64,000 bases of DNA from Haliotis rufescens (taxonomy: Eukaryota), in assembly GCF_023055435.1 (NCBI RefSeq), contig NW_025963780.1:44144001-44208000 (forward strand), in the 5' to 3' direction. Within the stretch, counting starts at the first letter, position 1. Each line of letters begins with the position of its first letter. The position numbers were made by a program. Below, piece after piece: positions 13,001 to 16,000 of the stretch.

Positions 13001-16000
13001 CTCAAACTAGAATGGCGGCTTACGGAAAGTTTGACAGGGAAAAAATAATTTCTTCACTCACGTAAATACAATAATGAGGAATTATTTTCTTATAGATGTT
13101 GTACCATTGATCAACCAGGCATAAATTTGATATTGACATTGTACTTGTGCTAGGTATTGCGCCTTTCTTACAAGATGATCATAAACGTCAACATGGTCAT
13201 CTTATCAACGACTGCCTCTGTGGTCTAGTGGTAGAGCGTCCGCCCGGAGAGCGGGAGGTTTGGAGTTCGATCCCCGGCCGCGTTAAAAGATGGTACTTGT
13301 TGTTATCCTGTCGACATTAAAGGGCGAAAACAAGGACTGGTCGGCTCGGAGTCAGTATACTGTGTCTGAGTGGGGTATTCATGTTAAACTGCGGCATGGT
13401 ATCTCAGTGTGTTAGCACTATAAATCGGCACCAGTCCGGGCTAGTACAAGCAGCCACACACGCACACGCACACGCACACACACACACACACACACACTGC
13501 ACGACGCTATATAAGTGCAATAATCTTCGACGCGACGTGTAACTCCATTTCACCTCACCTCACATCTAATCAACAGTGTATAGGTACTTGAGAATGATAT
13601 TAGATGAATAAAATGTCACTACAGCTAATTGCAAGGTGGATGAAAAAGGATCACAAAAAGTTTGACTCGTGACTCACAACGACACACATTCTAATGTAAA
13701 ACTGTATGTATCTAATACTACGACATATGTTAACAGAAGCGGTTATCATCGGCAGCAGTGTGGGAGGAGTCATCATGATAGCAATCATAGTGACAATCAC
13801 GGTCTGTGTCCGACGAAAGAAAAGGTAAAAGCTTTTACAATTAGAATTACCATATCGGGGAAATAACATATCCAAACATTCACTCTACATGGAGTGAGTC
13901 ATGCATGAATCGTCGTGTTCTTAGATAGACATTGCCTCGCAATTCAAGTGAGTGAGTGAGTATGGTTTTACGCCACTTTTAGCAATATTCCAGCAATATC
14001 ACGGCGGGGGACACCAGAAATGGGCTTCACACATTGTACCCATGTCGGGAATCGAACCCGTGTCTTCGGCGTGACGAGCGAACGCTTTAACCACTTGGCT
14101 ACCCGACCGCCCCCGCAATTCAAGAGTATGTTTGTAATTGATCTTTCATCTATCGTTGATAAAATCATCATACATGGTTACTGAGATTATGCATATCAGT
14201 GAAAACACTTCTTATTTCCTATACTTCCGTTAAAAACATGATATAAAATAAGTTCAGGACGATTGTTTGTGGGTGTCAACTTCGGTATTATGAGGAACTC
14301 AACATTTCAGAGTATATGCTAACTCCCTCATCCGGTGATATGAATTTGCTACATCCTTTCACCGGATGAAGTAAGCCTATACACGTAAATGTTGTGTTCC
14401 TCAGAATAAAGTAGTTGACATCCATAAATTCTCTTTCTCATGTATATCACTTTTATGCCATTCAAAGACTTGATATATTATGTTGATATCGAATGTGTAT
14501 TAGTTGTGTTTCTCAGTTTCGACATATTGCATACAACTGTCCTTGAGGCAATGAACACTCCATCATTGGTCTTTCTGGTGCCTGAATACAATCATGGTGC
14601 AATTATGGTATATTGATCGGTATGAAGTTAAATAATATATCAATCGGTTCCAAGATGAAGTATTCCAAAATTAAGGCTATGCACACGTGCTTATACAACA
14701 AGCGGAGCAATATATGTATTGCACATAAAAAGCCATCATTATACCTACTGAATTTATATTTTCTAGAAACAGTTTAGAGAAACAAATCCAACACGTGGAC
14801 ACAATGAAGAAAACCACTAGGATGTGAACGGTCAAACGGTGCCCGGAACTCTGTAAGTGATGGATACGTGCCTAACCCAATCTATGAAGGAACTGATGAC
14901 TACAAGCTGGAGCAATTGCACAGAAAGACTAGCAGTGACATTAAAGATGGCTATGAACCAGACACGGAGTCACCTTGTGGCTTCACGCGATCAGGACCAG
15001 AACGTTTAGGCCTCAGTCTTGACAAAACCTCCCTGGTGACGCAAGGACACCTTGACTATTTTGACGACATAGTTTTTAATACAGAGCCAACTGGGGGACA
15101 TTCAGAAGCGAAGAGCGATGGTAGAGTTTCAGATCTCTATGCCAAGGGGAACAAAGCACATCATGTGCATCTACACATGGGCGTATTGTCATGCATTTTT
15201 AAATTACACATGACAATGAATTAAAAAAATATGTTCTCACTGGATCTCCACAAATTGGGATGCTATTGTGCTTAAAAGCAAGGTTACAATCAACATAGGT
15301 AATTCTTTCACATCTATTATTTAATTGCTATTAAAGGTATGTTCTCCAAATATGTCGCACTTGTAAAACGTCTTATAGATTTTAGCTCAAGCTCGTATTT
15401 ATCCTTTTCTGTCCACGTGTGTTGTTCATTCTGCAGTAACAGATGTTTACTTATTAGTGCATATAGTTGTCTATTGCTTGTGTTTATTGATTTTTGAGTG
15501 AAACATTTTTGCGCATTTTCCCAAACTTTGCTATTTGTGAGCTATGTTCCATTAACTATGTTGTTCATACATATCCAAAGTGCGGGTGTAATTCTTTGTG
15601 TTTTTCCCTACCATGTTAATTGTTCACCTGGAAAAAACATCGGACATCGGACATCATGTTTGTGACTGAGGCATCAAATTTGGAAATGTCCTCCACATGT
15701 CTACCATAAAAACTTTTTGGAAGCTTTACTGAGGCCTTGAATGTTGTCACCTTAATCCAGCAACTTCTGAGCAAGAGTCGTGTGACGCTCTTTGAAATCT
15801 TGGGTTGAAAGAGCATGCTCGATCGTATCTCAAGAGTTGTGAAACGTCAACACCAAAGGCTGGAGCAGCTGGAATATTGCTCAACTTGTAGGGAAAGTTG
15901 ACTATTGGAAAGTTGAACTCATCACTCTTGTCATGCAGTCTGGTGGAGAGTGTTTTGTCACTCTGAATCTTTATGCATAGATCTAAACATAAAACAGATG

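What the first reader, a model, noticed from the sequence alone, without database searches (positions are those of the whole stretch)
14773..15230. Paralog A lost only its signalling tail, through several separate hits
Seen versus C: a 1-nt deletion near 14783, GAG>TAG at 14818, a second 1-nt deletion near 14833, YAKV>YAKG, and a ~285-bp deletion joining NKA directly to 3'UTR sequence (removing VYTQV, MYAKV and the stop). All six upstream coding exons are intact. The predicted product is 462 aa with a ~22-residue Tyr-free tail, and the stop lies in the last exon so it should escape NMD. Inference: lesions confined to the tail suggest a maintained non-signalling membrane decoy.
Basis: partly seen in the sequence, partly recalled or inferred. 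Interest (0 to 1): 0.7.

Follow-up and report, generated by a model that had tools for sequence, protein, structure and literature searches.

The report
Tail-less abalone receptor paralog, apparently retained
One of four neighbouring copies of an uncharacterised red abalone surface-receptor gene has lost its tyrosine-motif inner tail but kept its outer part intact, as has a sister species, so it looks like a retained tail-less variant, a familiar pattern in receptor gene families.

Summary
The window is red abalone (Haliotis rufescens), not human. It holds four tandem paralogs of an unnamed type I membrane glycoprotein family. Paralog A is RefSeq LOC124125038 and paralog C is LOC124120898.

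Only the first single-base deletion matters for the protein. It shifts the frame into a TGA, leaving a 22-24 residue tail with no tyrosine. The listed TAG is out of A's frame, and every later lesion lies in what is now 3'UTR.

Evidence for retention:
- A H. cracherodii protein (P0007) ends in the same shifted peptide.
- A-specific changes in the two ectodomain exons give omega about 0.24.
- The old tail diverges like non-coding DNA.

"Maintained" is supported. "Decoy" and "signalling" are inference: the tail motifs are NPxY and YxxV, not canonical ITIMs. Expression was not checked, and gene conversion is a caveat.

The parts
2366..15230 (+). Paralog A, taken as one part: RefSeq LOC124125038 (P0001, 494 aa), the tail-truncated gene. 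The 3' end is approximate.
   Evidence: P0001 is 100% identical to A exon 2. Its exons were mapped back by local tblastn.
2366..2438 (+). Extra 5' exon used by the RefSeq model of A. It is probably 5'UTR if translation starts at MWTKW.
   Evidence: H. cracherodii P0006 carries the same N-terminal extension.
3109..3180 (+). A exon E0: signal peptide (MWTKWHASHSLLIWITLQ).
3842..4237 (+). A exon E1: Cys-rich N-terminal ectodomain part.
   Evidence: No Pfam match.
5733..6083 (+). A exon E2: second ectodomain domain, a beta-sandwich with a CUB-like fold (a lead only).
   Evidence: AF2 gave pLDDT 72.6. Foldseek's best hits are CUB domains, TMq 0.47-0.53, E >= 0.012.
7718..8083 (+). A exon E3: Ser/Thr-rich mucin-like stalk.
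12679..12756 (+). A exon E4: short stalk exon.
13737..13824 (+). A exon E5: transmembrane helix plus the RRKK stop-transfer. It contains no charged residue.
   Evidence: dN/dS against C is 0.11.
14767..14827 (+). Coding part of A's last exon. The alternative acceptor gives a start at 14773. It ends at the operative TGA (14825-14827) and encodes the Tyr-free C-terminus.
14828..15230 (+). Former tail-coding sequence of A, now untranslated, followed by 3'UTR. It carries the remaining lesions.
32799..43677 (+). Paralog C: LOC124120898 (P0014/P0015, 581/641 aa), start codon to stop. It has the full 185-aa tail.
43137..43677 (+). Coding part of C's last exon: the intact tail with NPIY, YAKV, YTQV and YAKV.
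22613..28761 (+). Paralog B: LOC124120904 (P0016, 271 aa). Its reading frame ends inside E2. Exons for the alternative TM and tail lie at 28151-28261 and 28618-28761.
53232..57916 (-). Paralog D: LOC124120917 (P0003, 323 aa), a form with no TM.

Best explanation
Paralog A is a real, retained, tail-less member of a fast-evolving abalone family of type I membrane glycoproteins.

The family's architecture is:
- signal peptide
- Cys-rich domain
- CUB-like beta-sandwich
- mucin-like stalk
- one TM helix
- in full-length members, a ~175-185 aa cytoplasmic tail with NPxY and three YxxV motifs

Shown:
- One single-base deletion early in the last exon shifted the frame, so A's product ends 22-24 residues after the membrane with no tyrosine.
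- The same shifted C-terminus is present in a sister species.
- The rest of the old tail has since decayed like non-coding DNA.
- The exons for the signal peptide, ectodomain, stalk and TM stayed open, correctly spliced and under purifying selection.

Inferred:
- The protein reaches the surface and presents the same ligand-binding ectodomain as its full-length neighbours.
- It cannot recruit PTB or SH2 partners or endocytic adaptors. It would therefore act as a non-transducing, probably non-internalising, binder that competes with or buffers the full-length receptors (a 'decoy').
For: 1. Lesions and frame.
2. RefSeq annotates A as protein-coding with exactly this end (P0001).
3. H. cracherodii P0007 (473 aa) ends in the same shifted peptide, 14 of 17 residues identical, with its stop at the same codon. 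It is also the best match for A's E3 (109/121) and E4 (22/25).
4. No stop occurs in E0-E5. The 3 A-C gaps in 1,342 aligned coding bp are all multiples of three, against 109 of 144 non-3n gaps in 9,246 non-coding bp. P(0) is about 4e-4 if A carried half the neutral rate.
5. A-branch singletons in E1+E2 (238 codons, four paralogs) are 6 synonymous and 5 non-synonymous, omega about 0.24, p = 0.019. This is the fewest non-synonymous singletons of the four: A 5, D 7, B 17, C 25.
6. A-C mismatch is 8.5% in upstream coding sequence against 12.5% in non-coding DNA (p = 1.5e-5). The old tail is at 13.5%, which is indistinguishable from non-coding (p = 0.53) and higher than the coding exons (p = 0.005). 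dN/dS in the one-frame remnant is 0.93, against 0.64 in E1+E2 and 0.11 in the TM exon.
7. A versus P0007 amino-acid identity in E1+E2 is 230/247 (93.1%). That is higher than in any of the eight class-matched rufescens-cracherodii pairs I compared (85.1-91.1%). Only A against P0006, which is not class-matched, is higher (94.7%).
8. Other tail-less and secreted classes recur in both species: P0005/P0006/P0010 end right after the TM, and P0003/P0011 have no TM.
9. No exon for the alternative TM and tail lies in A's locus, so nothing there substitutes for the lost tail.
Against: - No transcript or protein evidence was seen.
- The counts behind omega are small (11 singleton changes).
- Gene conversion is likely in this cluster. 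E2 synonymous divergence (0.044-0.146) is mostly below non-coding divergence, and the best H. cracherodii match changes from exon to exon. A's exons could therefore be kept intact passively.
- The old-tail remnant has only 7 A-unique residue changes in 97 columns, much like the intact tails (8, 8 and 3). Substitutions alone therefore do not show long decay.
- Whether P0007's gene is the true ortholog, and whether it shares the later lesions, could not be checked without its DNA.
- No ligand is known, and the tail's function is inferred from motifs only.
Confidence: 0.55

Rival explanations
1. A is a slowly dying pseudogene. The tail went first, and the upstream exons look healthy only because exon-limited gene conversion from functional neighbours keeps overwriting them, or because too little time has passed.
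For: - E2 is 93-96% identical among the paralogs while the surrounding non-coding DNA is about 87%. E2 dS is as low as 0.044.
- The best cross-species match is mosaic from exon to exon.
- Two other paralogs in the same window are truncated (B inside E2, D before the TM), so gene death is common here.
- No expression evidence was seen.
Against: - Conversion did not refresh the tail, although intact tails exist in C and in LOC124120909.
- The indel load of the old tail fits roughly the whole A-C divergence time (about 2.3 expected, 2 seen), so time was not short.
- The same truncated reading frame is open and complete in a second species.
- A's branch omega of 0.24 is as low as that of D (0.25), the lowest of the other three.
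Confidence: 0.25
2. A is functional but not a decoy. It would be a surface-retained adhesion or mucin-type protein, or the ligand-binding partner of another chain that does the signalling. On this view the lost tail was mainly an endocytic-sorting tail (NPxY, YxxPhi) rather than a signalling tail.
For: - The tail motifs match the NPxY and YxxPhi patterns. The ITIM, ITSM and ITAM patterns match none of the H. rufescens or H. cracherodii long tails.
- The long Ser/Thr-rich stalk is retained.
- The family also keeps secreted and TM-only forms.
Against: - The TM helix has no charged residue of the kind that pairs short-tailed receptors with adaptor chains.
- A's TM exon matches C's at 26 of the 27 aligned residues, which gives no sign of a new partnership.
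- Nothing here separates this reading from the decoy reading.
Confidence: 0.14
3. A still makes a tailed protein. A cryptic acceptor inside the last exon (exon start 14810) would join E5 in frame to the open 138-codon remnant (14808-15221), which still holds NPIY and one YAKx motif.
For: - An AG dinucleotide in the right phase exists, and the remnant frame is open.
- The remnant has few A-unique changes.
Against: - The cryptic site has the poorest pyrimidine tract of all the acceptors tested (0.40 against 0.50-0.75).
- An open remnant is not surprising (simulated P = 0.12-0.60).
- RefSeq lists no such product among the hits.
- The remnant's dN/dS is 0.93.
Confidence: 0.03
4. The truncation is an assembly artefact. 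One of the single-base deletions sits in a short homopolymer, which is where long-read assemblies tend to err.
For: The homopolymer context can be seen.
Against: - An independent assembly of another species gives the same shifted C-terminus (P0007).
- The further lesions downstream, including a 282-bp deletion that removes the original stop, cannot be homopolymer errors.
Confidence: 0.03

Closest known systems
RefSeq gene LOC124125038 of Haliotis rufescens (P0001), with its H. cracherodii counterpart P0007
   Same: It is the same gene. The annotated protein already ends in the shifted, Tyr-free C-terminus.
   Different: The record calls it 'uncharacterized protein'. I found nothing in print on the locus, its paralogy or its lost tail (0 papers for four LOC identifiers).
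Tail-less or decoy members of vertebrate receptor families, such as IL-1R2 and the TRAIL decoy receptors, and the short-tail members of the KIR, LILR, Siglec and CEACAM clusters (recalled knowledge; CEACAM and KIR papers appear only in the listing)
   Same: - A tandem multigene cluster.
- A shared ectodomain.
- Members that differ mainly in the cytoplasmic end: a long Tyr-motif tail, an alternative short tail, tail-less forms and secreted forms.
- Fast ectodomain evolution, with pairwise omega 0.31-0.64.
   Different: - The ectodomain is not an Ig, TNFR or lectin domain by Pfam.
- There is no canonical ITIM or ITAM.
- There is no charged TM residue.
- No ligand, partner or expression data exist.
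Abalone VEZP14, a paralog of the egg-coat lysin receptor VERL proposed as a mimic or decoy (PMC3567151; I saw only the search listing and the start of the abstract)
   Same: An abalone duplicate that keeps binding capacity while taking a non-canonical role, as an idea.
   Different: It is an unrelated ZP-type egg-coat protein (recalled). It is not a membrane receptor with a lost tail, and there is no sequence link to this family.
NPxY/YxxPhi-tailed engulfment and endocytic receptors of the LDLR, CED-1/Draper and MEGF10 types (recalled)
   Same: The intact tails carry NPIY plus YxxV motifs that are conserved from H. asinina to H. rufescens.
   Different: No EGF or LDL-A modules are found in any exon searched. 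The likeness rests on short motifs alone.
CUB-domain extracellular proteins (MAp19, MASP-1, spermadhesins, Kremen, C1s, Neto2)
   Same: The best fold matches of the E2 model are CUB domains, with TMq 0.47-0.53. The Atlas search gave a weak CUB lead.
   Different: There is no Pfam CUB match. The Foldseek E-values are 0.012 or worse, with none at or below 0.001. The model confidence is moderate (pLDDT 72.6).

Membership tests
Decoy / tail-less receptor paralog | The ectodomain is homologous to that of a full-length, tail-bearing paralog. | tested here: met
   A versus C: E1 is 90.0% and E2 is 93.1% identical at the DNA level. They share the same exon structure.
Decoy / tail-less receptor paralog | The signal peptide and membrane anchor are retained. 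| tested here: met
   E0 and E5 are intact. The TM is AVIIGSSVGGVIMIAIIVTITVCV followed by RRKK.
Decoy / tail-less receptor paralog | The cytoplasmic docking motifs are absent. | tested here: met
   The tail is 24 residues (RefSeq model) with 0 Tyr.
Decoy / tail-less receptor paralog | The gene is expressed and the protein sits at the cell surface. | not testable with these tools
   No transcript or proteome data are held. One search found no papers.
Decoy / tail-less receptor paralog | It binds the same ligand and lowers the output of the full-length receptor. | not testable with these tools
   The ligand is unknown.
ITIM-bearing inhibitory receptors (for the intact tail of C) | (S/I/V/L)xYxx(I/V/L) in the tail (pattern recalled). 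| tested here: not met
   There are 0 matches in P0012, P0014, P0015 and P0017. The H. asinina tails have one or two matches, and H. rubra P0025 has an ITSM-like TLYAKV instead.
Short-tailed activating receptors that pair with ITAM adaptors | A charged residue within the TM helix (recalled). | tested here: not met
   There is no K, R, D or E in A's TM.
Pseudogene | Disabling lesions spread over the coding sequence, with omega near 1. | tested here: not met
   The upstream exons have 0 stops and 0 frame-breaking gaps. A-branch omega is about 0.24. The criterion is met only in the old tail.
CUB domain (PF00431) | A sequence match to the Pfam model. | tested here: not met
   There is no Pfam family at E <= 1 for the E2 frame.
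CUB domain (PF00431) | A CUB jelly-roll fold. | tested here: inconclusive
   The top Foldseek hits are CUB domains, but with TMq 0.47-0.53 and E >= 0.012. The model has pLDDT 72.6.
NPxY/YxxPhi endocytic or engulfment receptors | NPxY and YxxPhi motifs in the tail (patterns recalled). | tested here: met
   C has NPIY plus YAKV, YTQV and YAKV. NPIY is present in 6 of the 7 long tails aligned. These motifs are short and occur by chance.
NPxY/YxxPhi endocytic or engulfment receptors | EGF or LDL-A type ectodomain modules. | tested here: not met
   No Pfam match in any exon frame.

The most novel reading that the evidence does not exclude
The cluster is a molluscan counterpart of vertebrate paired-receptor clusters, built on a non-Ig (Cys-rich plus CUB-like) ectodomain. 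Birth-and-death evolution would shuffle four kinds of ending onto one fast-evolving binding module: a long NPxY/YxxV tail, an alternative TM with a 49-aa Tyr-rich tail, tail-less forms and secreted forms. Paralog A would then be an anciently fixed, selectively kept tail-less antagonist shared by at least two abalone species.
Probability: 0.25. Interest if true: 0.6.

Novelty: new member of a known kind. Interest (0 to 1): 0.35.

Why it matters
If the tail-less form is truly kept by selection, it shows that an invertebrate receptor family with no Ig or TNFR ancestry arrived at the same design as vertebrate immune and cytokine receptor clusters. In that design one binding module is paired with transducing, non-transducing and soluble endings.

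It would also flag an unnamed family, so far seen mostly in Haliotis (11 representatives at E <= 0.001 out of 1.84 billion), as a candidate recognition system. Disease resistance and gamete recognition are both of practical interest in abalone.

Taken on its own, a truncated paralog in a tandem cluster is an ordinary finding.

Tried and rejected
- **Pfam on nine exon-sized frames of A and C:** nothing at or above threshold.
- **Atlas look-alikes of the H. cracherodii homolog P0017, residues 20-290:** all scores were below 0.8, which is chance level. CUB and SUEL-lectin were leads only.
- **AF2 of whole P0017 with a 17-row family alignment:** mean pLDDT 34.9. Its Foldseek hits had TMq <= 0.16 and are not usable.
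- **E2 on its own:** it folded better but gave only borderline CUB matches.
- **Literature:** no paper names the loci. 'Haliotis' with 'ITIM' or 'cytoplasmic tail' gave nothing relevant among the 15 of 1,873 papers listed.
- **Alternative tail exons in A's locus:** none found.
- **Open 138-codon remnant as a sign of use:** rejected, because simulation gives P = 0.12-0.60 for no stop.
- **Cryptic acceptor rescue:** the site is weak.
- **Counting the later lesions as independent selective hits:** rejected, because they lie after the stop.

- I searched the spliced model exon by exon and left out the search with the joined product.
- I left the N runs (19324-19745 and 38367-38579) as they are.

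**Not checked**
- Transcripts.
- H. cracherodii or any other abalone DNA. No collection on hand holds it, and genome contigs is prokaryotic and was not used.
- The closed metagenome and viral collections.
- Paper supplements.
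Full report
**What the window is.** A search with the peptide of one exon returned Haliotis rufescens proteins at 100% identity, plus relatives from H. cracherodii, H. rubra and H. asinina. The window is therefore red abalone, not human. It contains two N runs (19324-19745 and 38367-38579), which I left untouched.

Self-alignment shows a tandem cluster of four paralogs. Local mapping of the RefSeq proteins names them as follows:
- A, about 2366-15230 on the plus strand: LOC124125038 (P0001, 494 aa).
- B, 22613-28761 on the plus strand: LOC124120904 (P0016, 271 aa).
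- C, 32799-43677 on the plus strand: LOC124120898 (P0014/P0015, 581/641 aa).
- D, 57916-53232 on the minus strand: LOC124120917 (P0003, 323 aa).

**Gene model.** From the A/C alignments and the splice signals, A has these exons:
- an optional 5' exon, 2366-2438
- E0, 3109-3180: signal peptide
- E1, 3842-4237: Cys-rich domain
- E2, 5733-6083
- E3, 7718-8083: Ser/Thr-rich stalk
- E4, 12679-12756
- E5, 13737-13824: TM plus RRKK

All borders are AG/GT, and no exon from E0 to E5 contains a stop. I searched this model exon by exon and left out the search with the joined product.

**The observation.** Relative to C, A's last exon carries two single-base deletions, a stop in the old frame, the Val-to-Gly change in the first YAKV, and a large deletion. 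By my alignment the large deletion is 282 bp. It removes the last two Tyr motifs, the stop and 136 bases of 3'UTR.

Three corrections apply:
- The operative stop in A's shifted frame is the TGA at 14825-14827, not the listed TAG.
- A 6-bp difference in the tail is an in-frame insertion in C.

**What the lesions mean.** Only the first deletion changes the protein. Everything after the TGA is untranslated, so the later lesions are expected neutral decay and are not separate hits against signalling.

The old tail behaves like non-coding DNA:
- A-C mismatch is 13.5% in the tail against 12.5% in 9,246 aligned non-coding bases (p = 0.53).
- dN/dS is 0.93 over the 108 aligned codons (of 109) that can be read in one frame.
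- Its two frame-breaking gaps match the 2.3 expected if A's lineage carried half of the non-coding rate since the A-C split.

At the residue level the remnant is not yet strongly eroded. It has 7 A-unique changes in 97 columns, against 8, 8 and 3 for three intact tails.

**Is the rest maintained?** Four lines of evidence say yes.
1. The upstream coding exons show 8.5% mismatch to C, below the non-coding level (p = 1.5e-5). Their three gaps are all multiples of three. About 7.9 frame-breaking gaps would be expected under neutrality and none is seen (P about 4e-4).
2. With the four paralogs aligned over 238 codons of E1+E2, changes unique to A are 6 synonymous and 5 non-synonymous. This gives omega about 0.24 (one-sided p = 0.019). 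The corresponding values are 0.25 for D, 0.48 for B and 0.79 for C.
3. H. cracherodii P0007 (473 aa) ends in the same shifted peptide (14 of 17 residues identical, same stop position). It is the best cross-species match for A's E3 and E4, the second-best for E0 (P0006 matches 23 of 24 residues, P0007 17 of 18), and level with P0017 for E5. The truncation therefore most likely predates the split of the two species, and the frame has stayed open in both.
4. A versus P0007 is 93.1% identical in E1+E2. That is more than any of the eight class-matched rufescens-cracherodii pairs I compared (85.1-91.1%). Only A against P0006, which belongs to another ending class, is higher (94.7%).

**Caveats.**
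- The singleton counts are small.
- Orthology is mosaic. The best H. cracherodii match for A's E1 is P0006, and for E2 it is P0002.
- E2's synonymous divergence (0.044-0.146) is mostly below the non-coding level, which points to exon-level gene conversion. Conversion could keep A's exons intact without selection on A itself. Against that, conversion did not restore the tail.
- I could not see any transcript evidence.

**What the family is.**
- No exon matches Pfam.
- A profile of E2 finds only 11 representatives at E <= 0.001 among 1.84 billion. Five of these are distant (26-29% identity). P0029 and P0030 have the same layout of two N-terminal domains followed by a mucin-like repeat stalk, and P0030 also has a TM.
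- The E2 domain folds as a beta-sandwich (pLDDT 72.6). Its best structural matches are CUB domains, but only at TMq 0.47-0.53 and E >= 0.012. This is a lead, not a membership.
- The whole-protein model was too poor to use.
- The long tail occurs only in this family, in 9 proteins, all from Haliotis.

**The tail's nature.** Intact long tails (174-185 aa in the species nearest to A) carry NPIY and three YxxV/I motifs. These are conserved from H. asinina to H. rufescens, and NPIY is present in 6 of the 7 long tails aligned. By the patterns I recalled, none of the H. rufescens or H. cracherodii long tails has a canonical ITIM, ITSM or ITAM. The motifs fit PTB or SH2 docking and endocytic sorting equally well. 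'Signalling tail' is therefore plausible but not shown.

**Family context.** Among the 25 Haliotis proteins, the endings fall into five classes:
- a long tail
- an alternative TM with a 49-aa Tyr-rich tail
- A's type, with a 24-aa tail (P0001, P0007)
- TM with no tail at all (P0005, P0006, P0010)
- no TM (P0003, P0011, P0016)

The three kinds of shortened ending (short tail, no tail, no TM) each occur in both H. rufescens and H. cracherodii, which fits a family that regularly produces and keeps non-transducing members. A's locus has no exon for the alternative TM and tail. A's TM has no charged residue that would suggest pairing with an adaptor.

**Verdict.** The claim that A is a maintained tail-less membrane protein is supported by sequence evidence from two species. 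It remains open on expression and is clouded by possible gene conversion. The decoy mechanism is a reasonable inference with no direct evidence. The gene is already annotated and the pattern is a known kind, so interest is moderate to low. The uncharacterised family and its modular endings are the more interesting part.

Noticed in passing
window 22613-28761 (+), paralog B: B belongs to the alternative-tail class. Exons for that TM and tail lie at 28151-28261 and 28618-28761 and are about 80% identical to P0008/P0009. However, its reading frame ends inside E2 (TAA at 26528-26530), which gives RefSeq's 271-aa product. B is either a secreted stub or a dead gene.
   Followed up: partly
window 53232-57916 (-), paralog D; also 52608-52673 (-): D encodes a 323-aa form with no TM, and H. 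cracherodii has an equivalent (P0011). A stretch 97% identical to A's exon E4 survives downstream but is not part of the annotated protein.
   Followed up: partly
window 3040-3180 (A) versus 32799-32891 (C): The upstream start codon that B and C use (MSVSP.../MGVSP...) is out of frame with the main reading frame in A and opens a five-codon upstream ORF. A keeps the MWTKW start. RefSeq instead starts in an extra exon at 2366-2438, which H. cracherodii P0006 also has.
   Followed up: partly
window 37697-38095 (C exon E3): The two RefSeq isoforms of C differ by 60 residues of the mucin-like stalk (P0014 against P0015). This implies an internal donor within the exon.
   Followed up: no
proteins P0005 (H. 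rufescens), P0006 and P0010 (H. cracherodii); their loci are outside the window: A second tail-less class ends directly after the TM helix and lacks even the basic stop-transfer residues. It is present in both species.
   Followed up: partly
window E2 exons: 5733-6083, 26201-26526, 35411-35758, 54178-54525 (-): Synonymous divergence in E2 (0.044-0.146) is lower than in E1 (0.152-0.223) and mostly lower than non-coding divergence. B and D are 96% identical here. This is a likely trace of gene conversion.
   Followed up: partly
for example window 372-550, 12240-12417, 27960-28119, 32318-32495, 34778-34959, 40723-40905, 48282-48405, 51690-51873, 58126-58269: A dispersed repeat of about 180 bp has ten or more copies in both orientations, at 77-94% identity. 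It looks like a short interspersed element. I did not characterise it.
   Followed up: no
window 50126-50609, 52304-52633, 54629-55317, 56276-56574, 60988-61249: Tandem arrays with units of 15, 21, 29, 4/113 and 46 bp. The 29-bp array (23.8 copies) lies in an intron of D.
   Followed up: no
window 43893-44168 and 44388-44648: The sequence downstream of C's stop contains an internal duplication at 82% identity. A has a single copy that aligns to both.
   Followed up: no
window 19324-19745 and 38367-38579: Two runs of N. The second lies in C's intron 3, next to a stretch of A (about 8254-10225) that has no counterpart in C. I left both runs as they are.
   Followed up: no
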